Below, piece after piece: positions 11,354 to 51,383 of a stretch of 64,000 nt of DNA; within the stretch, counting starts at the first letter, position 1, and every line of letters begins with the position of its first letter. The stretch lies in UHGV virus genome UHGV-0084588; one strand, written 5' to 3'. The notes below the pieces were generated by a model that saw only the letters and a list, made by a program, of their open reading frames with translations, made no database searches and was not told the origin of the DNA. Origin of the DNA: a virus. The translations under genes and the position numbers were made by a program.

Positions 11354-11379
11354 TCAGATATATATTACCTAGGGGAGAG
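11354..11379 (+). promoter_or_regulatory. conserved 26-bp promoter-like motif (copy 1) with downstream hairpin
   Basis: TCAGATATATATTACCTAGGGGAGAG, one of four near-identical copies; followed by a hairpin and about 70 nt upstream of the ATG at 11426. Confidence 0.5.
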
Positions 11380-11425
11380 TGAAATTTACATTCACTCCAT
11401 TAGTTATAGCCGAAAGGAGGATTAG

Positions 11426-12277
11426 ATGTATCACCCGTATTATCTCCCGCGTATTCTAGCAAATAGGGACCCTGGTTATTACTACGAACAAACAAAGGGG
11501 TCTTTTAATCGACTTTACATTCGTGAATTTAATACCGACGAAATGACCGATGACCAGTATCTGGAGTATCTAAAAGACCTTTACAGTTTTTCAAAATCGA
11601 ATAAAGATGGCTTTGGACGTTCCGCAGTCATTAGAGATGGTGAATATCGCCATTTGGCTAAGCCTGTTACGTACCCTATTGTTACGCGAGCTTATACGTC
11701 GGATAGGCAATATATTGCTGAACTAAAATTTCCTTTACGGATAGACGGGCCTCAAATTAGCGCTATAGAAGTAGAAATTCAACCAATTGCTGAAAACTAT
11801 ATTGAGGACTACTTCAAGAAAGCTAAAGACGTACTCGACGAGGGTTTAAGTTACTCTGAAGAAGGCACGATTTGTCTTCTCTCGTTACTCACGAAGACTT
11901 ACGTCACGGCAAATTTCCGTGTCTCTGATTCCAGTAACTACAATACACTTACTCCCTCTAAGACAAAATCGGTTTATTGGGACGATCGGTTAGTCGACAG
12001 ACAACGCTGGCTTACTATCTTAGATAGAGTAAAATTCGAACCCCCTAAACACACCGAAGACAATTTTATTTTATTGCACAACTTCGAACCAATTTATATT
12101 CCAACGCATTTTGATCAAGCCTTACGTCATCGGTTGAAGTATGTGTTGGAATTACGGTACGGAAAGATAAACGGACTAACCTGTTCCGGTGAATTGGGTG
12201 AAGAAGAACGCGAGAAGATAAAAATCGTGTTTGATAAGTTGGTTGAAGATTACATTAAGAAGGAAGGGCAATTATGA
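11426..12277 (+). CDS. hypothetical protein
   Basis: 283-aa ORF; AAAGGAGG RBS. Confidence 0.65.
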   Translation: MYHPYYLPRILANRDPGYYYEQTKGSFNRLYIREFNTDEMTDDQYLEYLKDLYSFSKSNKDGFGRSAVIRDGEYRHLAKPVTYPIVTRAYTSDRQYIAELKFPLRIDGPQISAIEVEIQPIAENYIEDYFKKAKDVLDEGLSYSEEGTICLLSLLTKTYVTANFRVSDSSNYNTLTPSKTKSVYWDDRLVDRQRWLTILDRVKFEPPKHTEDNFILLHNFEPIYIPTHFDQALRHRLKYVLELRYGKINGLTCSGELGEEEREKIKIVFDKLVEDYIKKEGQL

Positions 12278-12717
12278 AACCAAATACTACTAACGGCATT
12301 ATGCTACTTTGTGATTCTGAAACGTTAGCAAATCGCATTCGTGGTTTGATGCAAGTACGTTGGCGGCAGAAAGTTCTCGTGGATTACGATGCACCGTTTG
12401 TTCACATTACCTGGCTGCCAGAAGCTAGTGATTTCAAAGAACGTATAACCACGAGAAGAATTAAAGAATGGTTATCGGCAATCATTAATAAACAGATTAC
12501 CGTTATCAATTTCCAACTTTTCGGTACCGCTGAAGAACATGAAATCTTGAAGCAGTGTTTAAGAGACTTGGGTCTTTCCTCTTCTGTTCGTGGTAGCTGC
12601 TACACGGCTTACTTTATCGGTTCACTTGAACTGTTTAAGAATACACTAATGCTTCAACTAAAAGACGACTACAAACTTTTAGATAAAATCGATTTCGAAT
12701 TCCCAGGCATGATTTAA
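12274..12717 (+). CDS. hypothetical protein
   Basis: 147-aa ORF; ATGA overlap with the upstream gene. Confidence 0.6.
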   Translation: MKPNTTNGIMLLCDSETLANRIRGLMQVRWRQKVLVDYDAPFVHITWLPEASDFKERITTRRIKEWLSAIINKQITVINFQLFGTAEEHEILKQCLRDLGLSSSVRGSCYTAYFIGSLELFKNTLMLQLKDDYKLLDKIDFEFPGMI

Positions 12718-12763
12718 GGAATCATAGCTTAATCACCCCACCATTTACCTAAAGGAGCATTAA

Positions 12764-13279
12764 ATGTCAGTAAATATTAACATGAATCTTTATACTAAAC
12801 GTGAACGTCAGATTCTGGCGAATCAACCTGGTGTTACGACTATCGACGGTAAACCTATTGACCGTTTAAAAGTTATCGTTGCGCGAAATTGTCATGAACA
12901 CGATTGGGACATTACCTACTTCCGTTGTTGTTCGGTCGCAAATGCGCTTACTCAACTCTCTAACTACCACTCAGGACCGCTATTAAAAGACTGGGTTTGG
13001 TTAGTGCCAAGAACACCCACAGCAATTGAGTATCCCGCTGGACTAGTTTATATTCGACCTGTCGCTTATCCAGAGCGTCTGAAAGAATATCTTGAAGTTA
13101 TCTGGAACCGTCCTCGTAAAGAGCTGGTGACGATTATTAATTTACTGCAGCAGATCGAAATCCCCGGCGTTTCGAATTTGAAACTCACGTCTCGCGATAT
13201 TAACCAGGCTTACTGGGAACTGGAGTGGACAGAACCGAAATTCGAAAACACTAACCGTATTTTCTTGCACCGGGGGTAA
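12764..13279 (+). CDS. hypothetical protein
   Basis: 171-aa ORF preceded by the conserved TTTACCTAAAGGAGCATTAAATG initiation context. Confidence 0.65.
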   Translation: MSVNINMNLYTKRERQILANQPGVTTIDGKPIDRLKVIVARNCHEHDWDITYFRCCSVANALTQLSNYHSGPLLKDWVWLVPRTPTAIEYPAGLVYIRPVAYPERLKEYLEVIWNRPRKELVTIINLLQQIEIPGVSNLKLTSRDINQAYWELEWTEPKFENTNRIFLHRG

Positions 13280-13281
13280 AA

Positions 13282-13563
13282 ATGTTAGATTGGTTGTTGG
13301 GTTTAATTAACACACGTCAACAGGAGCTTTATAAAGAAAACACGCGATTACGGCAGGAGCTTAGTAACAATCGTCAGACCAAACGACAATTAATTCGGAT
13401 GGTAAAACAACAGGCGCGTTGTATACGTGATATCGATTATCAGTATCACCGTCTGAATACCTTAGACCCAACAACAAAAGCCCTCGGTGGGACAATCGGA
13501 CACGCACGTAAAGTCAGTCACGATGCGTTAGTTCGATTAGATACAATAGAAGAGAAACTGTGA
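13282..13563 (+). CDS. hypothetical coiled-coil protein
   Basis: 93-aa ORF; GGGGGTAAAA RBS; predicted helical (NTRQQELYKENTRLRQELSNNRQTKRQLIRMVKQQ). Confidence 0.55.
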   Translation: MLDWLLGLINTRQQELYKENTRLRQELSNNRQTKRQLIRMVKQQARCIRDIDYQYHRLNTLDPTTKALGGTIGHARKVSHDALVRLDTIEEKL

Positions 13564-13605
13564 TATAACCCCTCTCAGGAAATCCTGAGAGGGGGGAGTA
13601 ACGAT

Positions 13606-13980
13606 ATGTCATTACTGTTATACAAATTCAGATGTTGGCTAGACACTTCGTTTAAAACCTGGGCTTGCGGCAAGAATGTCACAACGGTAGTTAAATCGGG
13701 TGACTGGTATACGGAAATTATTACATTAGCAAATGGAGGATTGCAAAACGTACAAGTTCGTAACGTAGTTGTTAGAATAGGACGTGAAGGAGGTGCAATC
13801 TTCAACTCTGAATACTATCAAGTTTCTGCCCTGGAGTTAAAAAACGGTCCGATTTTATTTATCGGTACAGCACAACACCTTTACGATACAGTTGTTAAGT
13901 TTGCTGAAAGGGTAAAACGTTTAAATGATTCGCTTAGTAAGTTTATTAAAGAAACTGAACGAACTACGGTGGAGATTTAA
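13606..13980 (+). CDS. hypothetical protein (tandem paralog 1)
   Basis: 124 aa; shares WACGKNVTTVVKSGDWYTE...NG.L.NV.VR.V.V..GR.GG..F.SE and LF..TAQ..YD with 13984..14370. Confidence 0.6.
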   Translation: MSLLLYKFRCWLDTSFKTWACGKNVTTVVKSGDWYTEIITLANGGLQNVQVRNVVVRIGREGGAIFNSEYYQVSALELKNGPILFIGTAQHLYDTVVKFAERVKRLNDSLSKFIKETERTTVEI

Positions 13981-13983
13981 AAG

Positions 13984-14370
13984 ATGCGTTTATTTTACTT
14001 AAAAAGGCGTTTGTCATTAAAAGCCCAACTGTTTGTTAACGAGAAAGTTAAAAACTGGCTGTGCGGTAAAAGGGTACAATATGTCGTTAAAGAAGGAGAC
14101 TGGTATACGGAGGTTGTGACTTCCCCTAACGGTGAACTTATAAACGTTACTATTCGTGACGTTATGGTTAAGGTTGGTAGGGGTGGCGGTCGGTTGTTTG
14201 AATCGGAAACTATAAGAGTCGCTGCTAAACAATTGAAAGATGGTCGAGTTTTATTCAATGTTACCGCCCAGAAATACTACGACAATTTATTCGAGTGTCA
14301 ACGAGCAATGGACAGAATGACCCGTGAGATGCGAAGAATGCACATTACGGAGATCACAATAGGAGTTTAA
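13984..14370 (+). CDS. hypothetical protein (tandem paralog 2)
   Basis: 128 aa; paralog of 13606..13980. Confidence 0.6.
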   Translation: MRLFYLKRRLSLKAQLFVNEKVKNWLCGKRVQYVVKEGDWYTEVVTSPNGELINVTIRDVMVKVGRGGGRLFESETIRVAAKQLKDGRVLFNVTAQKYYDNLFECQRAMDRMTREMRRMHITEITIGV

Positions 14371-14681
14371 TGATGGAAAATAAAATCGCGAACACATCGG
14401 CACCTGAGAACATTGTCAATTATATTCTCAGAGGCGGGTTATTAGAAGACAACAAAGAAACGTGCGATAAACTCGTTTCTCAACTACTGCCTATTCGTTC
14501 AGAATACTGCGAAATCGTTATCTTAGGTTCCGAGTATTGTGTACGCTCTTACTGCCGACGTTTCGAAGCCCTACGTGTACCTCGTACGTTAGGTGGTGTG
14601 ATCTTACTGATCTCATCTTTTCAAGACGCCCATGTGCGTGTGGCGACCTGGATTGCCAGAGGAGGTAACAGTGGTTTTTAA
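14370..14681 (+). CDS. hypothetical protein
   Basis: 103-aa ORF; start overlaps the upstream stop (TAATG). Confidence 0.55.
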   Translation: MMENKIANTSAPENIVNYILRGGLLEDNKETCDKLVSQLLPIRSEYCEIVILGSEYCVRSYCRRFEALRVPRTLGGVILLISSFQDAHVRVATWIARGGNSGF

Positions 14682-14979
14682 ATTGCTAGGTTTCGGAAAA
14701 TGCAAAGAGTGCGCAAAGCACGAAGAATTTATCAAGCTATTAGAAGAAACAGTTGAAACACAACAAGAACTCATTTCTGAATACCGTGCGAAAACTGGTT
14801 CAGTAGAATATCTGACCATCCTTGTTTGTGCTATTGCTGAGTTGGGTTGTGAGGGGGAATTGCCTAAAGAGGAGATATTAAAACTATTAAAAGAAAAAAC
14901 GTCGTTTTACCGTAAAGATATTGAAGCGTGTAAACGTGAGGTTAAAAGAGCTAACTGGGAGGTTATCAATGAAGCGTGA
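14671..14979 (+). CDS. hypothetical protein
   Basis: GTG start with GGAGG RBS 5 nt upstream; the ATG at 14632 has no RBS; Lys/Glu-rich with a CKEC motif. Confidence 0.45.
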   Translation: MVFKLLGFGKCKECAKHEEFIKLLEETVETQQELISEYRAKTGSVEYLTILVCAIAELGCEGELPKEEILKLLKEKTSFYRKDIEACKREVKRANWEVINEA

Positions 14980-15250
14980 AACTATTGTATTTTGTCAAAA
15001 CGGTGATGTAAAACAATACCGGGGCAAGAAGTTAATTCGTACGTTAGATTATCGCGAAGCAAAACGTTTCGTTGAAGAGTGTGCGTGGTTAATGCATTAC
15101 GAAGGGAACTATCGCGCCATCTTAGAAGCACCGCGTTTAGAACGTGCAGTTGCGCAGATGGCAATAGGTAATCCTAAGAACTGTTACCTGGCCCGTAAGC
15201 CCAAATACCTACAGCGTGTCTCGCTAGGCAGTTTTATTGCGGGTTTTTAA
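14969..15250 (+). CDS. hypothetical protein
   Basis: Internal ATG at 14969 with GGGAGG RBS, overlapping the upstream stop, preferred over 14921. Confidence 0.5.
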   Translation: MKRETIVFCQNGDVKQYRGKKLIRTLDYREAKRFVEECAWLMHYEGNYRAILEAPRLERAVAQMAIGNPKNCYLARKPKYLQRVSLGSFIAGF

Positions 15251-15261
15251 TAAAAATATTT

Positions 15262-15287
15262 TCAGATATATATTACCTAGGTGAGAG
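15262..15287 (+). promoter_or_regulatory. conserved 26-bp promoter-like motif (copy 2) with downstream hairpin
   Basis: TCAGATATATATTACCTAGGTGAGAG followed by the perfect hairpin GTGAGAGT-tcagtt-ACTCTCAC; 70 nt upstream of the ATG at 15332. Confidence 0.5.
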
Positions 15288-15331
15288 TTCAGTTACTCTC
15301 ACTTAACGAAACCATTTTAGGAGAATATACC

Positions 15332-15826
15332 ATGAACTTCACTAGACTTGATTACACTAACGAATTAGTCGACAAAGAAAAATACAAATTCACGATTGAC
15401 TTGGGTTACGGGCTGTGGGACGTAGAAAAAGATATTCTACACAAAGAATTCCGTGAGCAATTCGGTGCATTATTCTGCGCAGGATTCCGTAGAAATTCTA
15501 TTGATATCGGTTATGGTGCAACACCGTATAGCGACGAAGAAATGTTTACGCTGATAACACAGATTATCGGAACTCGTGTGGCTAAACGTTTTAATTATTC
15601 TAACGAACTTGTTTCGAAAGAACATTACAAGTTCACTGTTAGACTACCTGTTCCTCTCTTTAAAGAAGATAAGAATAGACTCTATAAAGCCCTACAAACC
15701 GAATTCGGTAAAACGCTCAAAATAGGGTTCCGCAGTCGTAGTATCGATATCGGAATTAGCGTAGACGTGTGCAGTGACGATGACCTTTACGAATTAGTTT
15801 CGGAAGTTATCGGAAAACACCTCTAA
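15332..15826 (+). CDS. hypothetical protein with internal tandem duplication
   Basis: Start at the ATG at 15332 (TAGGAGAATATACC RBS). Two ~85-aa halves repeat (YTNELVDKEKYKFTIDLGYGLW vs YSNELVSKEHYKFTVRLPVPLF; GFRRNSIDIGYG vs GFRSRSIDIGIS). Confidence 0.6.
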   Translation: MNFTRLDYTNELVDKEKYKFTIDLGYGLWDVEKDILHKEFREQFGALFCAGFRRNSIDIGYGATPYSDEEMFTLITQIIGTRVAKRFNYSNELVSKEHYKFTVRLPVPLFKEDKNRLYKALQTEFGKTLKIGFRSRSIDIGISVDVCSDDDLYELVSEVIGKHL

Positions 15827-15870
15827 GCGTAAATTAACGCTTCAGCTTGTAAAACCAAAAGGAAAATAAA

Positions 15871-16647
15871 ATGAAAACTATCGAGTTTAAGAATAGTAGT
15901 CTTTGGGCATACACGCACATCATTACGAGTTTCCTGAGAAACGTTACTCCACATCTTGCTTATCAGATTTATGGGAATGAGCTCACTATCGGTGGTTTTA
16001 ACGAGGATGAATTAAAACGAGCAAAAGAGTTCATTGACGATGTTCTTCGTGGTGAAGCAACGTGTTTAGTTGCAAGTTACGTTGCTAAAGACAAAGGAAG
16101 ATTAAACGTCATGGCAATTTTCAGATCGTTCTCCGAAAAAGTATACGAAGTTGAGAAGATTAGTCATACCGTTTATATTGTTTACTTTAAACGTTCGGCG
16201 GAGAAAAACGCTGATAAAATTCTGGAGTATTTCGACTGTAACCCGGGGGAAGGTATGGATGTCTATACGCTCGGTTACGATGGGGTACCTCACCGGAATA
16301 ACCTTATTCGCATTGACGAACCTTTTTCAGTCAATGACGATTCCTCGCCTATAGAGATGGTTCTGGTACACAAAGATCGTTTCGCGCATTACGACTCTGA
16401 TACTATTCAACGTGTCCTGAACAACGTTAATATACAGTTTTCACAAACCGAGCACTTAGTACGTGCATGTCTTAGGTCTAATGGCACAACATCATTTTTC
16501 TTCGAACGTCAAACCGTTTGGCAAACTTATCTGGCTCTGATGGAAGAACTTGATAGGATCGAGCCAGTTCAGGTTGGTGCAAATTGCTTATATTGGATAA
16601 AAACAAAAGGGTTCATGAATGAAAACGCTCAATTCAGATTTGCGTGA
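15871..16647 (+). CDS. hypothetical protein
   Basis: 258-aa ORF; AAAAGGAAAATAAA-ATG context. Confidence 0.6.
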   Translation: MKTIEFKNSSLWAYTHIITSFLRNVTPHLAYQIYGNELTIGGFNEDELKRAKEFIDDVLRGEATCLVASYVAKDKGRLNVMAIFRSFSEKVYEVEKISHTVYIVYFKRSAEKNADKILEYFDCNPGEGMDVYTLGYDGVPHRNNLIRIDEPFSVNDDSSPIEMVLVHKDRFAHYDSDTIQRVLNNVNIQFSQTEHLVRACLRSNGTTSFFFERQTVWQTYLALMEELDRIEPVQVGANCLYWIKTKGFMNENAQFRFA

Positions 16648-17047
16648 TTACATCCGTCAGTACCCAGCCAGTATTCCTGTACTGGCTTCACTTACGCTTT
16701 CAGGTACTGACGTTAACATCTTAACGGTGGAACAGTTCCACGAGATAATAAAAACCGCCTATAACTCCATTACCGCAACGTCAGTACGTAAACGTTGCGA
16801 TTATCCCGACGGGGATTTCGGCACCGAGATGTTTACCGATTACGCAGTTGCGTTTCTGTTAGGACGACACTGCCTCGATAAACTTAACACTGCAGTAGAA
16901 GGGGAAACAGTGACGGAAATAGTCAACGCTTGGCAGCAACGTATTCTGAGCGACCCTTACTGCCGCCAGGCGTTAAAACGAATGTCCACAACGGCGATTA
17001 CAAACGACCAGCGTGCTTTAGAGTTCTTTAAGCACAACTACAGCTAA
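16619..17047 (+). CDS. hypothetical protein (paralog of 17908..18339)
   Basis: 142 aa; N-terminal LNSDLRDYIRQYP.SIPVLA parallels LNDEIRNYIRNNPIALGVLA of 17908. Confidence 0.55.
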   Translation: MKTLNSDLRDYIRQYPASIPVLASLTLSGTDVNILTVEQFHEIIKTAYNSITATSVRKRCDYPDGDFGTEMFTDYAVAFLLGRHCLDKLNTAVEGETVTEIVNAWQQRILSDPYCRQALKRMSTTAITNDQRALEFFKHNYS

Positions 17048-17069
17048 TTTACCAAAAGGAAAAAATGAC

Positions 17070-17831
17070 ATGTTTAATATCGAAATTACCCCGCTCGTTA
17101 AAACTGAAATCCGTCCGGTTCCTGAAGCACAGTTACTCGATCAACTTTATCGCATATTCCTGGATAAAGGTGTACATTTCCGTGTAGAGCAGGTCAACGA
17201 TGAAAGCATCGTATTCTACTGGACTCACTGCAACGATTATCTTTGCGACACTATTGCGAAAGAAATCGGTGAGTTACTCAACTCAGCAGAAGGTACCACG
17301 AACACTCGGGTGGAAACGACCGAGACTGAACAACCGAAAGTAGAAGAACAGCAGAAAGACGAACCACACGTCCTCTGGTACGAAGGTAAGAAGATTAAGG
17401 AAATTAAAGAAGCGTTAGAGACCCTCTATCCCGACGATTTAGGTATTTATTCGGATAACGATAAGATCGTCGTTCGATTGAAGAAAGACGATCGTAATCT
17501 CATGGAAGAAATTAGTTCCATCGCTGAGCTGATCGATAACGATGCCGTTCGACTTATTTCGATTCATGGTATCGGAAAAGATACCGCTGATGAACTCATG
17601 CGTGTGGCTGTGCACGAACACAAGGAGAAAATTCATCAATCCGTTTACAAAGGTGAAACACTCACCGTTTTGATCGACAACGATGTTGAGGTTTTCAAAT
17701 CATTAACGAACTTTTTGCGAATTGTTTCAACGGATTCTTATATCGAAAAAGCACGTGCCTTGGTTCTCGAAAAGCTTTTTAATATTTACAACAAAGATTG
17801 CGATTGTCCTAATTGTCAAAAACGTCGTTAA
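17070..17831 (+). CDS. hypothetical protein with helix-hairpin-helix-like motif and C-terminal Cys cluster
   Basis: 253 aa; LISIHGIGKDTADELM resembles an HhH DNA-binding motif; C-terminal CDCPNCQKRR. Confidence 0.5.
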   Translation: MFNIEITPLVKTEIRPVPEAQLLDQLYRIFLDKGVHFRVEQVNDESIVFYWTHCNDYLCDTIAKEIGELLNSAEGTTNTRVETTETEQPKVEEQQKDEPHVLWYEGKKIKEIKEALETLYPDDLGIYSDNDKIVVRLKKDDRNLMEEISSIAELIDNDAVRLISIHGIGKDTADELMRVAVHEHKEKIHQSVYKGETLTVLIDNDVEVFKSLTNFLRIVSTDSYIEKARALVLEKLFNIYNKDCDCPNCQKRR

Positions 17832-17854
17832 TTAACGACATTCTAAATTCAACC

Positions 17855-17885
17855 AAGGGGTGGTTTACCGCCCCTCTATTATTGT
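17855..17885 (+). terminator. rho-independent terminator
   Basis: AGGGGTGG-ttta-CCGCCCCT hairpin followed by a T-rich tract. Confidence 0.6.
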
Positions 17886-17907
17886 ATTTACCTAAAGGAG
17901 TATTAAA

Positions 17908-18339
17908 ATGTTTTTCGTATTAAATGATGAAATCCGTAACTACATTCGTAACAATCCGATTGCTCTGGGCGTTTTAGCAGGTTTCTGTCGCCCAAATACT
18001 GACTTCGATTTAGTTAAGTTAGAAGAATATCAGGAAATTGTGAATACTAACTACATGCACATCTGTAGCTGGGGTAAACGTCCTCGTGAAGAGTACCCTG
18101 TAGGTGAGTTAGGTGACACTATGCATCGTGACCAGAATCTGATGCACGAATTCGTTGAATACACACTGGAAAATCTTAACTATCCGCTTCTGGTCGACAC
18201 TGTACCAGAAATGGTTGACGAATGGTTAAGTCGTGTTTACAATGACCCTACTACCAACAAGTTACTGAGTCAGATGTCGCAAACTTCTCGTGATATCGAC
18301 ACTCGCACCCTAATGTACTTAGCACACAACGTTCGCTAA
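17908..18339 (+). CDS. hypothetical protein (paralog of 16619..17047)
   Basis: 143 aa; preceded by the conserved TTTACCTAAAGGAGTATTAAAATG context. Confidence 0.6.
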   Translation: MFFVLNDEIRNYIRNNPIALGVLAGFCRPNTDFDLVKLEEYQEIVNTNYMHICSWGKRPREEYPVGELGDTMHRDQNLMHEFVEYTLENLNYPLLVDTVPEMVDEWLSRVYNDPTTNKLLSQMSQTSRDIDTRTLMYLAHNVR

Positions 18340-18346
18340 CCTCACT

Positions 18347-18400
18347 CCGCTATAGACCGAAGTCTATAGCGGAATTAATTTTCTTTCCCTTTTCTTTTTT
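18347..18400 (+). terminator. rho-independent terminator
   Basis: CCGCTATAGAC-cgaa-GTCTATAGCGG hairpin followed by a long T-rich tract. Confidence 0.75.
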
Positions 18401-18505
18401 GTTATTTTGACGCTACGTTACTTACCTTCTACTCGGCTATTCCTATGCTGGCTGAGGGATGTAAAACGACCTCTTAAACCTTTTTACTTATTGTGAGTTA
18501 ACGCG

Positions 18506-19354
18506 ATGTCTCTTACGTCAAAACAGAAACTGCTAAAACTCATCAACACTGAAAACAATATTGTTCCGCCATTGACCTTCAGTGATGTTGATATCGGCGA
18601 ACCTACTGGTACTGGGGTTGATACCCAGGTGGTTCTGACTTCTAAACTCAAAGGCGATGAGTCTACTACTTTAACGGTGACTTACCATCGTCGTAATTTG
18701 CCAGAATACCTAACAGGCGAGTTGGTATTCGGTAACGACGGTGTTGTAACTGCTGCAGATTTGCTTAATGCAATCAACGCAAAATACGATTTAAATATTC
18801 TGCCGTCAGATATCGTTGATGCGAAAGTTGAAGGTAAAACCCACCAACTTGCCGCTAACGAGAAATCCTACGAGTGGTGTGGCGAAGTGACACTTACGCT
18901 ACGCGATCCTATTGATCTGGCTAAACTGCTACCTGTTACTCAATTAGAAAACCTGGTAGAGTATCCGTCCACCAAGAAAGGTAACGCTGCGGTTTATTCT
19001 TATCCGATTGACTTCACCGCAGAAAAAGATTACCTTGATCCGATTACCATTAACGACACCGTAGACTTAGTAGAGTTAGCTACTAAACTGACTAACGTTG
19101 TTGACGAGAAATGGGTAAGCGTACCTAAGAACGCTGCTAATAACTTGTTCGGTGCTAAGGTTATCTACGATGGCCCTACCGCAGGTTTCGAAGGCGCAAA
19201 TGCGAAGTACACGCGTGTGCTGGTACTCGCCCTAAGCGGTATGTGTTCTAACCTGACCGGTAAACTGTTAATTCACTTTAACGGAACCGATCGTCCGAAG
19301 TCGAAGATTGAATTAGCCAAGACTAATTCGGTCTTACCGGGATTCTTAGATTAA
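18506..19354 (+). CDS. paralog-family protein (family A-related)
   Basis: 282 aa; N-terminus LINTENN...FSDVDIGEPTG...TLTVTYHRRNL...DLLNAINAKYDLNILPSDI aligns with 3448, 10163, 19368, 22511 and 23107. Confidence 0.6.
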   Translation: MSLTSKQKLLKLINTENNIVPPLTFSDVDIGEPTGTGVDTQVVLTSKLKGDESTTLTVTYHRRNLPEYLTGELVFGNDGVVTAADLLNAINAKYDLNILPSDIVDAKVEGKTHQLAANEKSYEWCGEVTLTLRDPIDLAKLLPVTQLENLVEYPSTKKGNAAVYSYPIDFTAEKDYLDPITINDTVDLVELATKLTNVVDEKWVSVPKNAANNLFGAKVIYDGPTAGFEGANAKYTRVLVLALSGMCSNLTGKLLIHFNGTDRPKSKIELAKTNSVLPGFLD

Positions 19355-19367
19355 GAGGATTACAGTA

Positions 19368-19844
19368 ATGACCAGTCAAGAAACTATCTTCGACCTTATT
19401 AAAAAGGCTAACCCAGACGCCGAGCTCGACACCGCCAAAGTCACATTGGGTGAGCCCGTCGTAAGTACCGGTACGTACAACACCGAAATTACGGTTGCGC
19501 CGGTGAAGAATCTCGGTTATGTTAATAAGCAAACGTTCCAGTATAACCGCATTGATGCAGGTTTGTATTTCCTCAACGTATTGCCGAAACTGTTAGTTGA
19601 AACAGCCACCACGACTGCGGACTTGCTGCCTGTAATTAACGAGCAGTATGGCTTAACCCTTACCGAAGACGATGTGTGGGTAGAGCAGGTTGGTGCGTTA
19701 CCGCTAGACGGCAGTGCAATCGAGCACGGTATTTTCTTCCGCCCAGAGTGTCTAACCTGGGTCGGTGGTTTTACAGTGCGTGTTGCGCGTAAACCGTCTG
19801 TCGAGACACCGCCAGCTAAGCCATCGCGCGCTAAGAAGAAATAA
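19368..19844 (+). CDS. paralog-family protein (family A-related)
   Basis: 158 aa; same motif series (DLIKKANPD...VTLGEP...QYNRID...ADLLPVINEQYGLTLTEDDV). Confidence 0.6.
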   Translation: MTSQETIFDLIKKANPDAELDTAKVTLGEPVVSTGTYNTEITVAPVKNLGYVNKQTFQYNRIDAGLYFLNVLPKLLVETATTTADLLPVINEQYGLTLTEDDVWVEQVGALPLDGSAIEHGIFFRPECLTWVGGFTVRVARKPSVETPPAKPSRAKKK

Positions 19845-19848
19845 CTAC

Positions 19849-19882
19849 AGGGTGGGGTAATCCCACCCTCTTTTCTTTTTTT
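19849..19882 (+). terminator. rho-independent terminator
   Basis: AGGGTGGGG-taat-CCCACCCT hairpin followed by a T-run. Confidence 0.8.
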
Positions 19883-19906
19883 GTGTAAAAAGAGGAGTTA
19901 AACAAA

Positions 19907-30374: not shown

Positions 30375-30414
30375 GGCCACTCTCCTTAATCCGAGACGTC
30401 CTTGTCTCGTGGCG

Positions 30415-35601: not shown

Positions 35602-35619
35602 CGTAAAGACTCCTACTTT

Positions 35620-35658
35620 TAAATAAAATGGATACCCCTCCCCATTACAGGGAGGGGT
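35620..35658 (-). terminator. hairpin between tailspike genes
   Basis: ACCCCTCC-ccattacag-GGAGGGGT, followed on the minus strand by a U-rich stretch and the RBS of the next gene. Confidence 0.5.
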
Positions 35659-35695
35659 TACCTACGGACACACAACTGCCCGCAGGCAGTCTGTC

Positions 35696-39880: not shown

Positions 39881-39890
39881 AAAATTCTCC

Positions 39891-42800: not shown

Positions 42801-44213
42801 CGTGCGTAATAGTTTCTTTTGTGCTGTCAACGTCGCTTGTGTTGGATACTTAGCATTAACATAGTCCGTTAACTGCGGCTTCGTTTTTCCGTAAGCTAAT
42901 GCTGCATCCGACGCAATGCCGTTCAACTCTAACGCACGGATCGGACCCCACGTATCTGTGTGTGGGTTGTCCTTACGTGTAACGTGTTCGTGCGCAGGCG
43001 CATTACGATACAGCTGCTCAACTAACTGATGATACTTAACTATTAACTGGTAAACATCGTTATCGACGTCGGGCTCCGGCGCACCGGGTAAAGAACGAAT
43101 TTGAACATAATCGTTTTCAGCCGCATACCAGTTCAGGTTAATGTTCGTTTTAGACTTCAACCATTTGGCTACATTCGTTTTCGAATACCCTGCCGAGAAC
43201 TCATCAGGCGGCGTATCGACGTTGAATGTATAATCCATGGTCTGTTTATTTGTTTTTACTACGATTACGTAAACGCCGTTTCCGGGCTGACGGGTTACAC
43301 TAAAATCGATATCGTTTTTTAACTCATCGTCAGTTAAACCGTTGATTAAAGTATAATCGTAGTTTGTTGAACCACTGCCAATAGCGACAGTTAAGACCAG
43401 TGAGATTTTGCGCTGTTTTAGCTGTAACCGTAGAATGCTTGCACCGCCGTTGGCATAACAGAGCATCCAATCGATCTGCTCGTTCGGATTCAACTTTGTC
43501 ATGTCTGGCAGAATAGCAGGAATTCTGTGTTTCACCGACAGGGAATAGTCGTTAAAGGTTGTCGCGTTATAACTCAGGCTATAACGGTGGCGAGCTGTGT
43601 TGTAGGTGAAACCGCCTTTATTATCGTACGCGGCATACTGCTCGGAAGTGATAACCTTGCTATTAGCACGATATTCCAAATCCAGTGTGTTGCGTGCGAT
43701 TGGGTTAAGCCGACTCACGACTTCCCCTAACGAATCGCCTACCCCAGCAATGGCCTGCATTAGCTCCAGTTCACCTTTCCAATTCTCCCAATCGAACTGG
43801 ATATCGACCGGTGGAAAGTAAACGTCTCCGATAACGGTGTCCCACTGACACGCGGAAGGGTATTTACCTTTATTAAGCTCGCGCTCTGCGGTAATCTGCT
43901 CTTGGGTTGCTTCACCGCAACCAACGGCATGGTAATCTACAGTAAAGTTCGATTTGTATTTGTCATTAACAATCCAAATCATCCCGTGAATGAGATAGGC
44001 TGTGCGCAACATACCAGTCTCGTACGGGTGTGTAATAACGTAATCGTCGCCTAAGGTCAGTATTTTGCCGCCGCTCTTGACCACCAGGGATGTGGTGAAA
44101 AAAGGGGCGTGGGCAGGTACCAACATTCGGTATTTCGTACCAATGACGGCGACCGCTTCACCGGTTATTTTATTCCCCGGTTTTTTGAAGTGTGGGTCTA
44201 AGACGACAGCCAT
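39891..44213 (-). CDS. giant tailspike/tail-fibre protein (1440 aa)
   Basis: N-terminal YRMLVPAHAPFFTTSLVVKSGGKILTLGDDYVITHPY anchor motif; FGLGNVANTPDVDLPIS and KVHHHPF segments. Confidence 0.75.
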   Translation of the reverse strand: MAVVLDPHFKKPGNKITGEAVAVIGTKYRMLVPAHAPFFTTSLVVKSGGKILTLGDDYVITHPYETGMLRTAYLIHGMIWIVNDKYKSNFTVDYHAVGCGEATQEQITAERELNKGKYPSACQWDTVIGDVYFPPVDIQFDWENWKGELELMQAIAGVGDSLGEVVSRLNPIARNTLDLEYRANSKVITSEQYAAYDNKGGFTYNTARHRYSLSYNATTFNDYSLSVKHRIPAILPDMTKLNPNEQIDWMLCYANGGASILRLQLKQRKISLVLTVAIGSGSTNYDYTLINGLTDDELKNDIDFSVTRQPGNGVYVIVVKTNKQTMDYTFNVDTPPDEFSAGYSKTNVAKWLKSKTNINLNWYAAENDYVQIRSLPGAPEPDVDNDVYQLIVKYHQLVEQLYRNAPAHEHVTRKDNPHTDTWGPIRALELNGIASDAALAYGKTKPQLTDYVNAKYPTQATLTAQKKLLRTSATKTANGTIGTLPGFTSFTTEVDPVSMSKYVSPRFSESYVSNGHRYHGALRYTGTKSGFTTSFNAVPANLQDIDFIVTGRKTASGNEAVGTVSLRFYQKPGTNSGKFIQLTGEISAGKVGVKLELNGFSNPTPEVQYLSQAPNPAIPDGDFTLRFQLKRTGNVFDVVITINGKTYSARVNFTNMDAALEALENSHHFKSLIGNVADNVTISSGNKGNTVTIKKAPDVVDGTRLGAQFVVDPKSIKFIGQGSTDVNVGNNPVTLQAGDNQLVLYPDDRGLLWRGKKLLDPTTVAPYLPGNTAGGTGLFYGASTATVELTGSGIKASPFVATFILPVAEDVTTLACWQLTDEFGTAENLAATPALIEKLDAEFTGKLVAAKSYINDMQLTSSVTIDKITFGLGNVANTPDVDLPISTAQQAELDKYSPKVHHHPFTAFGTGNATTAKRGLIKFGLDVDDATLALDGSVVMAQTTQIEKLESAVGGVDSEARLDIIRFGKSGNDLIDVTVKDKILVTLPASTYFIGGETYTVPLTTINVSERFPKLNTEIYAGIFVDIVDNKAKYIIHDSYSQAETDTMTRVGLIGVNDLSEVFVTEMRNVTRLDDFRELKDHAADDNAHIHRSTTRAVLGLANLTVGAPCWASGLQAVVRGEADWRYVVGGQYRALDGVKYDQLASKWVFDAKGVSDNLHGFIHNLFPTFKNAGMRVSWETESNAKTGTVLETVLGCWKNTDGEFMRLSLLITRGYRLTDSNGEYCYAGFGLNFGSGKSVVVGFTPTKRVTAAPWSSLQPDVTFTHTRGANNAITFNASLTLAGTVYTIVVFLSTTDKYVSCTAAGGTTQKIPLVDRLTGFNIEPIVNDPYTPIYYGLGGLYEDEVRANIRSTADSATANKVYGTLLDYISNYSSLNRVRVMELAGVSSDPETLNALVATEFNNSLADYAALPIPPYLNKERVMSFIDTNNKVQAVIIRD

Positions 44214-46979: not shown

Positions 46980-47007
46980 CGGGACGTTCCTTAGATCGGA
47001 ATTGAAT

Positions 47008-47033
47008 TCAGATATATATTACTTAAGTGAATA
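47008..47033 (+). promoter_or_regulatory. conserved 26-bp promoter-like motif (copy 3) with downstream hairpin
   Basis: TCAGATATATATTACTTAAGTGAATA followed by an 11-bp stem (TAGGGACTGAA/TTCAGTCCCTA); unlike the other copies it lies about 390 nt upstream of the next ATG. Confidence 0.45.
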
Positions 47034-47398
47034 GGGACTGAAGTACCAGTTCAGTCCCTACGGACACGTTTCATTCGAAACGGATTGATTAAACCATTTG
47101 GGGAGACAGATCATGTCTACTAAAAAAAGAAAGTCTCAATGAGCTGCTCAAACGTCTTAAAGACTACACTCCATTTAGTACCTTCCGATAACAGGTACTA
47201 AAATTTTACAGTCTGCCCCTTTATTCTGCTACTCGGGATACCGGTAGGGGGTAGGGGGCATTATGTATACGGATATAAATAGCGGAGGTATACGTAGTAT
47301 ACCGACATACTCTTCCCAGAGGAACGTAGTGACTTCCTTATTCCTCTTCTGCAATCCATAATAATAGACTCCCCTTTATTGAGATTAGCGAGTAAATC

Positions 47399-48136
47399 AT
47401 GAGAGAATTATTAGACGATATCTTTACTAACACCAGTTTAGAACTTTCTTCTACCGTTGTTAACGAACTATTAAAACAATCGCAACCTGCTAAGTTAATC
47501 GATGCTGGAACAATTAAACCTGAAGATTATCCAGACAGTGACGTTATCGACTGTATGATTGACGAATACGTGATAGGCAGTTACGCCAACCGCGTCTTCT
47601 TCGTTATTAATACCGAAACCAGTGTCATGTTAATCTATAAGTTGATCAGTGATGCCGAACTTGAAGTTGTGGCTGACCACATTCGTCTTCTTGCGAACAC
47701 GCCTACTAGTATCGATGATGTGCTTATTGGGAACGGTTGGGCTTTACCACCACTATTCTCTTACTTCCCTCTGTTTAGAAATGGGATAGGGTTACTCCGA
47801 AATGCAGAAAAGCTTCCCGATAACGTCGAGTTATCACTGCTTGGACCCGGCATCGATCTTTGTCCATTAGAAGACGAGGGCACGCTATATGGTTTGCGCA
47901 TCTATGTTTCTGTGTTAAAGGGTTACCGCGTTATTGAACTGATTGCATCCGACTTAGCAAAACAGATCCCAGATGTGGAAACGATTTCTAAAGCCACCCA
48001 CCTGGTTGAGATTAACTCAGACGATCCCTTATTGAAATATCACGAGAAAATTGATCTTCGTAAAATCGCCACGATGAGAGGGTGGAGTTGTGCTGAGATT
48101 ACGAAGGACTATCTGCTGTTAATTAAAACCGCGTAA
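47399..48136 (+). CDS. hypothetical protein (paralog array member 1)
   Basis: 245 aa; C-terminal ...RGWSCAEITKDYLLLIKTA is related to the GW...QLLF.AD ends of the next three genes. Confidence 0.55.
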   Translation: MRELLDDIFTNTSLELSSTVVNELLKQSQPAKLIDAGTIKPEDYPDSDVIDCMIDEYVIGSYANRVFFVINTETSVMLIYKLISDAELEVVADHIRLLANTPTSIDDVLIGNGWALPPLFSYFPLFRNGIGLLRNAEKLPDNVELSLLGPGIDLCPLEDEGTLYGLRIYVSVLKGYRVIELIASDLAKQIPDVETISKATHLVEINSDDPLLKYHEKIDLRKIATMRGWSCAEITKDYLLLIKTA

Positions 48137-48166
48137 TTAAGAAAACCGAAAAAAGGAGAATATACC

Positions 48167-48721: not shown

Positions 48722-48732
48722 AGGATGGTATC

Positions 48733-49860: not shown

Positions 49861-49886
49861 TAAGTGAAACTACACTTTCTCTAACT

Positions 49887-49910
49887 GCCGCGCTTTAGTC
49901 GCGGCTTTTG
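49887..49910 (+). terminator. weak hairpin terminator
   Basis: GCCGCG-cttta-gtCGCGGC followed by TTTTGTT. Confidence 0.4.
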
Positions 49911-49928
49911 TTAAGAAGGAAAAAAGAA

Positions 49929-50708
49929 ATGAAAATCCATTTAGACGACCTCTTTAAAACTGAACCGTACATGGTTAAAGGTTCGCTGGCTTCATTGTTG
50001 CTAGACGATAGATACCATCGAACGCTACAATTACAATCGGTAGAAACCGCGCCAACGGGAATTGAAGACGTGGGTCTTTACCAACGTATCACTCACACAC
50101 GTGGAGAATATCGTCGATATAAACCCGATACACTGACCGTTAAGCTTTGGCAAGTGGGCACAGGCAAGGTATTAAGTTATCGCGCCGTTGGTCTGTACCA
50201 CGTTGAACGTGCTTACACATGGTTAGAAGAAGTTAAAGAAATGGATTACGACCAGCTAAGCAAAAGACTTCGTGACCATAACGCCAGTTTACCGTTACGT
50301 AATTATTTCTCCACAGTTGAAAATAGTCGTTGTTTCGTTTCTCGCGAATCCATGATATTACCTGGAACTGACGTTCAGACGACGCTAAAAGACGTGGTTG
50401 TAAAGAAAGTCTTTCATGAGTCTGAACACGTTGGGTTTCGTATCTATTTAACCCACAAGAGACCATTTACCGTGATTCATGTTGTTACCGTACCCGAAGG
50501 ATCAGCAGTCTCTCGGGAACTTCCTGATGCTCGCGACCGTTGCCCTAATGAGCCGCTCTACTTAATGTCAGGAACAAAATCAACCGCGTTGATGTCTCGT
50601 TACAGCATGATAGATGTTGTTGACGCTGCTATGAAGCTAGGTTGGAAAGAAGTGCAGCAACACGGTAAACAGTTGCTGTTTATTGCCGATGTAAAACTTA
50701 ATTATTAG
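49929..50708 (+). CDS. hypothetical protein (paralog array member 4)
   Basis: Start at the ATG at 49929 (AAGGA RBS); C-terminal KLGWKEVQQHGKQLLFIADV. Confidence 0.55.
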   Translation: MKIHLDDLFKTEPYMVKGSLASLLLDDRYHRTLQLQSVETAPTGIEDVGLYQRITHTRGEYRRYKPDTLTVKLWQVGTGKVLSYRAVGLYHVERAYTWLEEVKEMDYDQLSKRLRDHNASLPLRNYFSTVENSRCFVSRESMILPGTDVQTTLKDVVVKKVFHESEHVGFRIYLTHKRPFTVIHVVTVPEGSAVSRELPDARDRCPNEPLYLMSGTKSTALMSRYSMIDVVDAAMKLGWKEVQQHGKQLLFIADVKLNY

Positions 50709-50720
50709 TGAGGTGGAACC

Positions 50721-51299
50721 GTGTACCGATTAATAGAAATGCGAAAAGACGTTTGGTTGGAAAATCTCGTCGATGGGGAGCTTGAGGGAGTTGGGCTTTC
50801 CTTACCAGAAAGGGCGGACACGGTATTAGCCTTTCTGATAAAGCGGGCAGCGAATGAACCTGTGGGGATTTTCGACGTGGATTACAAAGAACCGCGCGGA
50901 ATTCGTTTACGTAACATCTGTTGTGGTTTAGAGAACTTGACGGCAAGTCCTTTCGTAAACTACGCAAAACGTAAACTCCAGCCAGGGCAACATCTCTGGG
51001 TAGTTCTAGCGCCAGATATTCGCATTATGCGAGACGACCTGACTGCGTTTGTGCAAGCAACGAAAGTCAGTTTGTACAATCCTAATGCGGAACGTACCGA
51101 TATGCCGTTTACAATCACCTTAGAAGACGATGGAACGCAAGAGGGCATTGAGGCGATTACGGAATTAGTAAACTCTTATCCGGTTGCATCTATCGAGTTA
51201 GAAAACCCAAACCGATTACCGTTGGGGGATTTACTCGAATGGATTGAGCTGAATACTGAGTTCCTCATTAACTCCCGACAATATCGGTTCGATGTATAA
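50721..51299 (+). CDS. hypothetical protein
   Basis: 192-aa ORF with GTG start (GAGGTGG RBS). Confidence 0.5.
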   Translation: MYRLIEMRKDVWLENLVDGELEGVGLSLPERADTVLAFLIKRAANEPVGIFDVDYKEPRGIRLRNICCGLENLTASPFVNYAKRKLQPGQHLWVVLAPDIRIMRDDLTAFVQATKVSLYNPNAERTDMPFTITLEDDGTQEGIEAITELVNSYPVASIELENPNRLPLGDLLEWIELNTEFLINSRQYRFDV

Positions 51300-51303
51300 C
51301 GTC

Positions 51304-51336
51304 GGTGGGGGTAAACCCCCACCTTTTATTTTTTGT
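51304..51336 (+). terminator. rho-independent terminator
   Basis: GGTGGGGG-taaa-CCCCCACC followed by TTTTATTTTTTG. Confidence 0.8.
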
Positions 51337-51357
51337 TCGTCAACATTAAAAATAATT

Positions 51358-51383
51358 TCAGATATATATTACTTAGGTGAGAG
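51358..51383 (+). promoter_or_regulatory. conserved 26-bp promoter-like motif (copy 4) with downstream hairpin
   Basis: TCAGATATATATTACTTAGGTGAGAG followed by GAGTTA-tgat-TAACTC; 72 nt upstream of the ATG at 51430. Confidence 0.5.

What the first reader, a model, noticed from the sequence alone, without database searches (positions are those of the whole stretch)
11354..51383. Recurring 26-bp promoter-like motif TCAGATATATATTAC(C/T)TAGGTGAGAG, each followed by a different but structurally equivalent hairpin
Four near-identical copies occur at 11354, 15262, 47008 and 51358, each after an A/T-rich stretch and a terminator. Three sit 70-72 nt upstream of a start codon. Each is followed by a hairpin of different sequence, so the structure rather than the sequence is conserved. 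There is no conserved -35 element. The core TTAGGTGA resembles single-subunit RNA polymerase promoters such as SP6, so it may be a phage-specific promoter with an RNA stability or processing stem.
Basis: seen in the sequence. Interest (0 to 1): 0.6.

Follow-up and report, generated by a model that had tools for sequence, protein, structure and literature searches.

The report
Jumbo-phage early promoters with 5' hairpins
The repeated motif is the early-gene promoter of a giant (phiKZ/SPN3US-type) bacteriophage, most likely read by the multi-subunit RNA polymerase the virus carries in its particle. Each copy is followed by a short hairpin that would sit at the very start of the messenger RNA. 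The promoter type is already known, so this is an ordinary example with one small undescribed detail.

Summary
A weight-matrix scan finds four sites in 64 kb (11354, 15262, 47008, 51358). All are on the + strand, intergenic, and point towards the next gene; none are expected by chance. The 47008 copy is degenerate.

The window comes from an undescribed SPN3US-like jumbo phage. Its proteins are 41-50% identical to Erwinia and Salmonella jumbo phages. Its close metagenomic relatives encode the virion RNA polymerase subunit.

The motif (A/T-rich upstream element, TTTCAGATATATATTAC, YTAGGTGA) matches published early-promoter consensuses of phiKZ, 201phi2-1, OBP and N1M2. In phiKZ and 201phi2-1, mapped transcription starts follow this motif. 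The enzyme is therefore the multi-subunit virion polymerase, not an SP6/T7-type enzyme. The shared TTAGGTGA octamer is coincidental.

The hairpin claim also holds. Across 53 promoter copies from related phages, 75% have a hairpin starting at +1 to +4 of the predicted transcript, against 20% of shuffles. Stem arms match their own partners better than those of other sites (p<=5e-4).

The hairpin has no U-tract, so it is not a terminator. It is most likely a 5'-terminal stabilising stem-loop. It is inconsistent in phiKZ, and I found no paper describing it.

Verdict: new member of a known kind, with low to moderate interest.

The parts
11304..11333 (+). Intrinsic-terminator-like hairpin (13-bp stem, then T-run) that closes the upstream operon just before promoter copy 1
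11354..11379 (+). Early-promoter core, copy 1 (TCAGATATATATTACCTAGGGGAGAG). The upstream element is replaced by the terminator's T-run. Predicted transcription start is G at 11375.
   Evidence: 41 bits. The start is placed by analogy with the 201phi2-1 and phiKZ motifs (PMC11512511, PMC7058600).
11375..11398 (+). 5'-terminal hairpin of the predicted transcript (core stem GAGTGAA/TTCACTC, 7-nt loop)
   Evidence: -7.6 kcal/mol, z -3.3. A compensatory U-A to C-G change is seen in relative L054.
11426..12277 (+). First gene downstream of copy 1 (283 aa, no PHROG family)
15245..15287 (+). Early promoter, copy 2: A/T-rich upstream element (TAATAAAAATATTT) plus the core TCAGATATATATTACCTAGGTGAGAG. 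Predicted start is G at 15283.
   Evidence: (73 bits). This is the only part of window 10000-20000 with DNA similarity to known phages.
15283..15300 (+). 5'-terminal hairpin (stem GAGAGU/ACUCUC, 6-nt loop), paired from +1
   Evidence: -8.4 kcal/mol, z -2.9
15332..15826 (+). First gene downstream of copy 2 (164 aa, no PHROG family)
47008..47033 (+). Degenerate promoter copy 3 (TCAGATATATATTACTTAAGTGAATA), with no upstream A/T element, in a divergent intergenic region. Predicted start is G at 47029.
   Evidence: 15 bits; 2 mismatches to the N1M2 consensus. Relative L045 has the same site with a stronger upstream element (40 bits).
47032..47060 (+). Strong hairpin (11-bp stem, 7-nt loop) starting at +4 of the predicted transcript
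   Evidence: -17.3 kcal/mol, z -5.4
47061..47398 (+). Long leader with no ORF over 41 aa, unusually well folded, between copy 3 and the next long ORF (47399-48136)
   Evidence: z -4.4 for 47029-47400; no Rfam family
51304..51323 (+). Intrinsic-terminator-like hairpin (8-bp stem, 7 G-C pairs, then T-run) before promoter copy 4
51341..51383 (+). Early promoter, copy 4: upstream element CATTAAAAATAATT plus the core TCAGATATATATTACTTAGGTGAGAG. Predicted start is G at 51379.
   Evidence: (70 bits)
51381..51396 (+). 5'-proximal hairpin (stem GAGUUA/UAACUC, 4-nt loop) starting at +3
   Evidence: -6.0 kcal/mol, z -3.1
51430..51891 (+). First gene downstream of copy 4 (153 aa, hydrophobic N-terminus, no PHROG family)

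Best explanation
The four sites are early promoters of an SPN3US-like (phiKZ-related, Chimalliviridae-type) jumbo phage.

Proposed mechanism. On infection, the multi-subunit virion RNA polymerase (vRNAP) is injected with the DNA. It recognises an A/T-rich upstream element near -30/-20 and the core ATATATATTAC centred near -10. It starts transcription about 7 nt downstream of the core, at the last G of GGTG (window 11375, 15283, 47029, 51379). It then transcribes operons of small, uncharacterised early genes. Terminators of the preceding operons insulate two of the sites.

The first 16-30 nt of each transcript fold into a stem-loop that begins at +1 to +4. Its sequence differs from site to site. 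Its most likely role is a 5'-terminal stabilising stem-loop that hides the 5' end from 5'-end-dependent decay (RNase E / RppH type).

What is shown: the motif, its genomic placement, its conservation across the phage clade, its match to published consensuses, and the statistical reality and covariation of the hairpin.

What is inferred: the identity of the polymerase, the early timing, the exact transcription start, and the stabilising function.
For: 1. Phage identity.
- The large ORFs match jumbo-phage virion protein families, a tail fibre, a radical-SAM protein and an SbcC-like protein.
- The 1394-aa protein is 41-50% identical to proteins of Erwinia and Salmonella jumbo phages, including SPN3US.
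- The window is 83-95% identical in DNA to roughly 225-kb IMG/VR contigs. These contigs encode a 76-77% identical homologue of SPN3US gp241. That protein is the virion-packaged RNAP beta-N subunit, shown by mass spectrometry and genetics (PMC5105663).
- SPN3US carries eight RNAP-subunit CDS.

2. Motif identity.
- Three window sites match the published N1M2 early-promoter consensus TTTCARRYAKATATTATYWAAGTGWA with 3 or fewer mismatches of 26, against 0 expected.
- They also match the 201phi2-1 motif TATATTACDWHDGTG.
- Both consensuses, and phiKZ TATATTAC, are tabulated in PMC7058600.
- phiKZ itself shows ...TTTAAACAG-TATATTAC-TAAnTTGA.
- Transcription starts about 10 nt downstream of this A/T-rich element were mapped in phiKZ and 201phi2-1, and the element is assigned to vRNAP (PMC8244752, PMC11512511, PMC7598289).

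3. Placement.
- The window has only 4 hits, all intergenic and co-oriented with the downstream gene.
- In the whole SPN3US genome, 11 hits score at least 10 bits. All are on the + strand, intergenic, and upstream of co-oriented genes.
- The exact 22-mer occurs in IMG/VR almost only in jumbo-phage contigs of 107-246 kb; one hit is a 7.4-kb fragment.
- The promoter is the only DNA in window 10000-20000 that is conserved with known phages.

4. Hairpin.
- All four window hairpins have z-scores of -2.9 to -5.4.
- For 68 non-identical sites, the +1..+28 folding energy averages -5.1 kcal/mol against -2.0 for shuffles (p=7e-11). The sense strand folds better than the antisense (p=2e-4).
- 40 of 53 sites have a hairpin starting at +1..+4, against 20% of shuffles. 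In 33 of 53 the +1 base itself is paired.
- Each 5' arm pairs better with its own 3' region than with those of other sites: mean stem 6.0 versus 4.05 bp, permutation p<=5e-4.
Against: - No transcript 5' ends, timing data or polymerase-dependence data exist for this phage. I also found none for any SPN3US-like phage in the held literature. The assignment rests on homology to phiKZ and 201phi2-1.
- No RNAP gene lies in the window itself.
- The 47008 copy is weak (15 bits) and lacks the upstream element, so it may be a poor or non-functional promoter.
- The operon downstream of 15262 runs towards a virion-protein paralogue (18506-19354), which is not a typical early gene.
- The stabilising role of the hairpin is inference only.
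- The window's own hairpins are perfect palindromes that fold equally well on either strand.
- phiKZ early promoters lack a consistent hairpin, so it is not required for vRNAP promoters in general.
Confidence: 0.85

Rival explanations
1. One reading: promoters for a T7/SP6-type single-subunit phage RNA polymerase, with TTAGGTGA playing the role of the SP6 -15..-8 specificity region.
For: The octamer TTAGGTGA is shared with the SP6 promoter ATTTAGGTGACACTATAG (recalled from general knowledge, not tested with a tool). T7-type transcripts also often begin with a 5' stem-loop.
Against: - In T7/SP6-type promoters the -7..-1 region and +1 are conserved. Here, the positions after GGTGA are variable and form the hairpin.
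- Conservation here extends more than 20 nt upstream of the octamer into an A/T-rich element, as in phiKZ-type promoters.
- All long window ORFs are tail-fibre, virion-protein or SbcC-like families.
- The SPN3US annotation has multi-subunit RNAP subunits only.
Confidence: 0.03
2. Host sigma-70 promoters with an extended -10-like element (TATATT) and an UP-like A/T tract, read by host RNA polymerase early in infection.
For: TATATT is a fair -10 hexamer and the upstream region is A/T-rich. The consensus scan reports one 9/12 match at 15247-15274.
Against: - Sigma-70-like matches in these regions are at chance level: 10 found versus 10.3 expected, and 8 versus 9.2.
- No -35 element is conserved.
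- The invariant positions (TCAGATA..., ACYTAGGTGA) are not sigma-70 determinants.
- The motif is conserved across phages of Salmonella, Erwinia, Klebsiella and Pseudomonas, and it tracks the phage lineage that encodes its own polymerases.
- phiKZ development is independent of host RNAP (PMC7598289, PMC13282480).
Confidence: 0.05
3. The hairpin is a promoter-proximal attenuator or premature terminator that yields short 5' RNAs, or it regulates early-operon read-through.
For: Many copies read stem-CTTTTA. Premature termination in 5' UTRs and short 5' RNAs are reported in phiKZ and 201phi2-1 (PMC10914365, PMC11512511).
Against: - Once the T residues that pair with +1 G and +2 A are counted as part of the stem, the following 8 nt hold 2.6 T on average, against 2.5 expected. 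Only 2.5% of sites have 5 or more T.
- Stems are short and A/U-rich, with a median of -6.9 kcal/mol.
- The hairpin ends at about +21, when the polymerase has barely cleared the promoter.
Confidence: 0.07
4. The palindrome acts at the DNA level. It could be an operator for a dimeric phage protein that shuts off early promoters, or a cruciform or hairpin element used in promoter recognition, as in phage N4.
For: The inverted repeats lie within the polymerase footprint (+1..+25). The window's own copies fold equally well on both strands. Early promoters must be shut off later in infection.
Against: - Arm sequences differ widely between sites (GAGTGAA, GAGAGT, TAGGGACTGAA, GAGTTA, GATTGC, GCATTGA and others). 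This argues against a sequence-specific operator.
- Across 68 sites the sense strand folds better than the antisense (p=2e-4). G.U pairs make up 45 of 318 stem pairs, which only makes sense in the RNA or the sense strand.
- By my recollection, N4 promoter hairpins lie upstream of +1 and carry the conserved bases, which is the reverse of the arrangement here.
Confidence: 0.07

Closest known systems
Early promoters of phiKZ-related jumbo phages (phiKZ, 201phi2-1, OBP, N1M2, EL), assigned to the virion multi-subunit RNA polymerase
   Same: - Core TATATTAC(/T) preceded by TTT(C/A)A.. and followed by ..(A/G)GTG(A).
- A/T-rich upstream element near -20/-30.
- Multiple intergenic copies per genome, co-oriented with operons of small unknown genes and often just after a terminator.
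- 23-24 of 26 positions agree with the N1M2 consensus (PMC7058600, PMC8244752, PMC11512511, PMC7598289).
   Different: - The SPN3US-like version is longer and almost invariant (TCAGATATATATTACYTAGGTGA).
- There are fewer copies: 11 in SPN3US, against about 28-32 reported for phiKZ.
- It is followed by a +1-anchored hairpin that the phiKZ sites examined do not consistently have.
- No experimental start-site mapping was found for this clade.
SP6/T7-type single-subunit RNA polymerase promoters
   Same: A shared octamer TTAGGTGA with the SP6 promoter (from memory), phage-specific use, and a G-rich start followed by a 5' stem-loop in some T7 transcripts.
   Different: - No conserved -7..-1/+1 segment.
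- Conservation lies upstream instead.
- No cognate single-subunit polymerase.
- The phage lineage uses multi-subunit polymerases.
5'-terminal stabilising stem-loops of bacterial and phage mRNAs (for example the ompA 5' UTR hairpin and the T7 phi10 leader); compared from general knowledge
   Same: A stem-loop with 0-3 unpaired nucleotides at the predicted 5' end, a variable sequence and a conserved position.
   Different: The transcription start is only predicted here and stabilisation is untested. The stems are short and A/U-rich.
Phage N4 virion-polymerase hairpin promoters; compared from general knowledge
   Same: An injected virion polymerase transcribes the early genes, and a hairpin is associated with the promoter.
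   Different: In N4 the hairpin lies upstream of +1, is recognised as DNA, and the enzyme is a giant single-subunit polymerase. Here the hairpin lies downstream of the predicted start and the conserved bases lie outside it.

Membership tests
phiKZ-type jumbo-phage early (vRNAP) promoters | The genome belongs to a phage lineage that encodes a virion-packaged multi-subunit RNA polymerase | tested here: met
   Window proteins are 41-50% identical to SPN3US-like phages. Contigs 83-95% identical to the window in DNA encode a 76-77% identical homologue of SPN3US gp241, the vRNAP beta-N subunit (PMC5105663). This evidence is indirect, because no RNAP gene lies in the 64-kb window itself.
phiKZ-type jumbo-phage early (vRNAP) promoters | An A/T-rich core of about 10 nt (TATATTAC-like), with a T/A-rich element further upstream | tested here: met
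   Searches show matches to the published N1M2 and 201phi2-1 consensuses, with 0 to 0.3 expected by chance. phiKZ sites show the same layout. The upstream element is missing in the 47008 copy and replaced by a T-run at 11354.
phiKZ-type jumbo-phage early (vRNAP) promoters | Multiple intergenic copies per genome, co-oriented with the downstream operons and absent from coding sequence | tested here: met
   4 of 4 copies in the window. 11 of 11 in the SPN3US genome, checked against its annotation.
phiKZ-type jumbo-phage early (vRNAP) promoters | Primary transcript 5' ends about 7-10 nt downstream of the core; transcription early, rifampicin-resistant and independent of new protein synthesis | not testable with these tools
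   This needs RNA from infected cells. It is known for phiKZ and 201phi2-1 only (PMC8244752, PMC11512511, PMC7598289).
SP6/T7-type single-subunit RNAP promoters | A conserved block of about 23 bp that includes the -7..-1 region and +1 | tested here: not met
   Positions after GGTGA are variable and form site-specific hairpins.
SP6/T7-type single-subunit RNAP promoters | A cognate single-subunit RNA polymerase gene in the phage | tested here: not met
   None is found among the window ORFs and none is annotated in SPN3US. The complete genome of this phage was not available.
Sigma-70 host promoters | -35 and -10 hexamers with 16-18 nt spacing, found more often than chance | tested here: not met
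   Consensus matches are at the level of shuffled controls.
5'-terminal stabilising stem-loops | A stem-loop within about 0-4 nt of the transcript 5' end | tested here: inconclusive
   The feature is met if the start is the predicted G: 40 of 53 sites begin at +1..+4, against 20% of shuffles. The transcription start is inferred, not mapped.
5'-terminal stabilising stem-loops | The hairpin prolongs mRNA half-life | not testable with these tools
   This requires decay measurements with stem mutants.
Intrinsic terminators / attenuators | A G+C-rich stem followed by a U-tract | tested here: not met
   T is not enriched after the stem (2.6 versus 2.5 expected in 8 nt), and stems are A/U-rich with a median of -6.9 kcal/mol.
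N4-type hairpin promoters | A DNA hairpin upstream of +1 that carries the conserved bases, and a giant single-subunit vRNAP | tested here: not met
   The hairpin lies downstream of the conserved block. The largest ORFs are paralogous virion proteins, not an N4-like vRNAP.

The most novel reading that the evidence does not exclude
In SPN3US-like jumbo phages, the hairpin that starts at the first transcribed base may be an obligatory, clade-specific part of the early-expression cassette rather than a generic stabiliser. It might help the sigma-less virion polymerase clear the promoter. Alternatively it might mark, protect or route early mRNAs made in the early-infection vesicle, for instance against host RNA-targeting defences. 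phiKZ lacks a consistent equivalent, and I found no description of it in the held literature.
Probability: 0.15. Interest if true: 0.55.

Novelty: new member of a known kind. Interest (0 to 1): 0.28.

Why it matters
Practical value for annotation. The motif marks the early operons of an undescribed group of jumbo phages of about 225 kb. It gives a ready weight matrix for finding early genes in SPN3US-like genomes. These genes are candidates for host takeover and anti-defence functions. SPN3US itself has 11 such sites.

Value for experiments. The near-invariant 40-bp cassette is a natural template for in vitro work on the virion polymerase. I found no purification of that enzyme or test of it on promoters in the papers I read.

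The hairpin. The 5' hairpin with covarying arms is a small, testable addition to what is known. If it controls stability or promoter escape, it would matter for engineering these phages and for expressing transgenes early in infection.

No long-standing question is opened by this finding.

Tried and rejected
- MAFFT alignment of 36 promoter-proximal sequences came out ungapped. The 3' arms were therefore out of register, so it could not be used for RNAalifold or the count of structure pairs. I replaced it with an anchored-stem permutation test and shuffle tests.
- Pfam found no domain in the relative's gp241 homologue, which is too divergent. Its identity as an RNAP subunit rests on 76% identity to SPN3US gp241 and on PMC5105663.
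- The primary phiKZ promoter paper (Ceyssens 2014) is not held. The supplementary start-site tables of three transcriptome papers are also not held. The exact distance from motif to start is therefore taken from text descriptions only.
- A literature search for literal sequence strings returned only unrelated papers.
- Searches for an SPN3US or Goslar transcriptome with mapped early promoters found none.
- Rfam and tRNA scans of the window were empty.
- The sigma-70, SP6/T7, N4-hairpin and attenuator readings were each considered and rejected. The reasons are given under the rival explanations and the membership tests.

Full report
**Observation**

The 26-mer TCAGATATATATTACYTAGGTGAGAG occurs at 11354 (1 mismatch), 15262 and 51358 (0 mismatches), all on the + strand. 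No match appears in 100 dinucleotide-preserving shuffles. The fourth copy, at 47008, shares the first 18 bases and then diverges (TTAAGTGAATA).

A weight matrix built from related sites scores the four copies at 73, 70, 41 and 15 bits. It finds nothing else above 5 bits on either strand.

Distances from motif start to the next ATG are 72, 70 and 72 nt. The fourth copy lies 391 nt upstream of the next long ORF.

Terminator-like hairpins with T-runs precede only two copies, at 11304-11333 and 51304-51323. The 15262 copy follows a stop codon directly. The 47008 copy is in a divergent intergenic region beside the start of a minus-strand baseplate gene.

**What the window is**

- The large ORFs match a tail fibre, three paralogous giant virion proteins (1728, 1394 and 1440 aa), a radical-SAM protein, a baseplate protein and an SbcC-like protein.
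- The 1394-aa protein is 41-50% identical to proteins of Erwinia and Salmonella jumbo phages of about 240 kb (pEa_SNUABM_29, SPAsTU, phiEaH2, SPN3US).
- Gene order parallels SPN3US from about 100 to 178 kb.
- At the DNA level, megablast of window 10000-20000 against 50,697 phage genomes matches only about 40-60 bp around the 15262 promoter.
- The window is 83-95% identical to IMG/VR metagenomic contigs of about 225 kb. It therefore represents an undescribed group of SPN3US-like jumbo phages.

**Which polymerase**

SPN3US carries eight CDS annotated as RNA polymerase beta subunits. Its gp241, gp218, gp240, gp42 and gp244 form a virion-packaged multi-subunit polymerase, shown by mass spectrometry of amber mutants (PMC5105663).

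The window's close relatives encode a 76-77% identical gp241 homologue. No RNAP gene lies in the window itself, and no single-subunit polymerase is present.

**What the motif is**

Published early-promoter consensuses are tabulated in PMC7058600:

| Phage | Consensus |
|---|---|
| N1M2 | TBYAWWWWWTTTCARRYAKATATTATYWAAGTGWA |
| OBP | ...TTTYARRYAKATATTATYWWADTG |
| 201phi2-1 | ...TTTRARR_BTATATTACDWHDGTG |
| phiKZ | TATATTAC |

Three window sites match the N1M2 26-mer with 3 or fewer mismatches, against 0 expected. They also match the 201phi2-1 15-mer. In phiKZ itself I see TTTAAACAG-TATATTAC-TAAnTTGA upstream of early genes.

In phiKZ and 201phi2-1, mapped transcription starts lie about 10 nt downstream of this A/T-rich element. 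The element is attributed to the virion polymerase, and a comparable motif can be found in every RNAP-encoding jumbo phage (PMC8244752, PMC11512511, PMC7598289, PMC13282480).

The exact 22-mer occurs in IMG/VR almost only in jumbo-phage contigs of 107-246 kb; the one other hit is a 7.4-kb fragment. In the complete SPN3US genome the matrix finds 11 sites scoring at least 10 bits. All are on the + strand and intergenic, upstream of co-oriented genes (checked).

The conserved block also includes an upstream element ATTAAAAAtaATT. This corresponds to the -20/-30 conservation described for phiKZ and 201phi2-1.

By alignment with the 201phi2-1 motif, which was derived from -50..+1 windows, the start is predicted at the last G of GGTG, give or take about 2 nt. 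That gives window positions 11375, 15283, 47029 and 51379, and 5' UTRs of 49-51 nt for three sites. This placement is an inference.

**The hairpin**

- Each window copy is followed by a hairpin. Energies are -7.6, -8.4, -17.3 and -6.0 kcal/mol, with z-scores of -3.3, -2.9, -5.4 and -3.1.
- Across 68 non-identical promoter copies from related phages, the +1..+28 folding energy averages -5.1 kcal/mol. Dinucleotide shuffles average -2.0 (Wilcoxon p=7e-11) and the antisense strand averages -4.2 (p=2e-4).
- Of 53 strong sites, 40 have a hairpin starting at +1..+4 with dG of -3 or lower, against 20% of shuffles. In 33 of them the +1 base itself is paired.
- A test that avoids circularity joins each site's 5' arm to the 3' region of every other site. 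Own partners give a mean anchored stem of 6.0 bp and chimeras give 4.05 bp (permutation p<=5e-4).
- Direct examples of compensation exist. The window has GAGAGTGAA...TTCACTC where relative L054 has GAGAGCGAA...TTCGCTC.
- The CTTTT that often follows the stem mostly pairs with +1 G and +2 A. Beyond the full stem, T is not enriched (2.6 versus 2.5 expected in 8 nt). The hairpin is therefore not terminator-like.
- The phiKZ sites I examined lack a consistent equivalent.
- None of the papers I searched on jumbo-phage transcription or genomics (phiKZ, 201phi2-1, AR9, the ChmC study, two reviews, a comparative-genomics survey and an Erwinia jumbo-phage paper) describes a promoter-associated hairpin. 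Absence from the held library is not proof that it is unreported.

**Mechanism**

The best-supported reading has the injected virion polymerase recognising the upstream A/T element and the ATATATATTAC core. It starts at GGTG and transcribes operons of small unknown early genes. The first genes after each promoter have no PHROG family.

The nascent RNA folds at once into a stem-loop that leaves 0-3 unpaired 5' nucleotides. From general knowledge of 5'-end-dependent decay in enterobacteria, such a structure would protect the transcript. That step is inference. Promoter escape, attenuation and a DNA operator are alternatives with less support.

**Comparison and novelty**

This is a new set of members of a known promoter class, in an undescribed phage. 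The SP6-like reading fails its membership tests:

- The -7..-1 equivalent is variable.
- Conservation lies upstream.
- No single-subunit polymerase is present.

The sigma-70 reading is at chance level. The +1-anchored hairpin with covarying arms appears specific to the SPN3US-like clade and undescribed. It is a modest addition rather than a new kind of system.

**Verdict**

- Confidence in the vRNAP early-promoter assignment is about 0.85.
- Confidence in the stabiliser role is about 0.5.
- Interest is 0.28.

Noticed in passing
window 47029-47398: The 370-nt stretch downstream of the weak fourth promoter has no ORF over 41 aa and folds unusually well (-108 kcal/mol, z -4.4). It contains GGTAGGGGGTAGGGGGC and a 9-codon ORF with a Shine-Dalgarno sequence at 47114. 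There is no Rfam match. It may be a structured leader or a non-coding RNA.
   Followed up: partly
window 51358-51416 versus L045 about 9500-9580: In a 92%-identical relative, the promoter at the position equivalent to window 51358 carries a hairpin and 5' UTR like those of window 15283 (GAGAGTACAAAAGCACTCACTTAACGAAAACCATTTTAGGAG). The DNA alignment breaks exactly at 51385-51416. Promoter-hairpin-UTR cassettes therefore seem to be exchanged between sites.
   Followed up: partly
window 11384-11391; L054, L055, L056, L010, L011; SPN3US 109912: In one group of hairpins the loop GAAATTTAC(G/A) is conserved while the stems differ (GAGTGAA, GAGCGAA, TGTGTG, TGCGCG, CTCTGA). This hints at a function for the loop sequence. 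I did not verify that these sites are orthologous.
   Followed up: no
loci L005, L008, L013, L014, L026, L028, L034; SPN3US 65432, 94258, 223296: Many early 5' UTRs in related phages share (C/T)GAC(T/C)ATCAAGGAG or AATCGACTATTAATCTAAAGGAG immediately before the start codon. The whole promoter-to-ribosome-site cassette of about 100 nt is therefore repeated within genomes. The window's own UTRs lack this element.
   Followed up: no
window 29175-44213 (minus strand): Four adjacent ORFs (435, 1728, 1394 and 1440 aa) cross-match the same PHROG virion-protein families. They form a tandem paralogue array of giant virion proteins, as in SPN3US.
   Followed up: partly
SPN3US (L067) 72505 and 72703: Two weak promoter-like sites (10 and 15 bits) lie 200 nt apart between the major head protein gene and the next gene. 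The first is followed by an unannotated short ORF with a good ribosome-binding site.
   Followed up: no
L071 (phiKZ) 31194: One phiKZ TATATTAT site is followed directly by a strong G+C-rich hairpin (GGGGGACCC...GGGTCCC, -15.9 kcal/mol). This resembles the conserved phiKZ terminator motif rather than a 5' hairpin.
   Followed up: no
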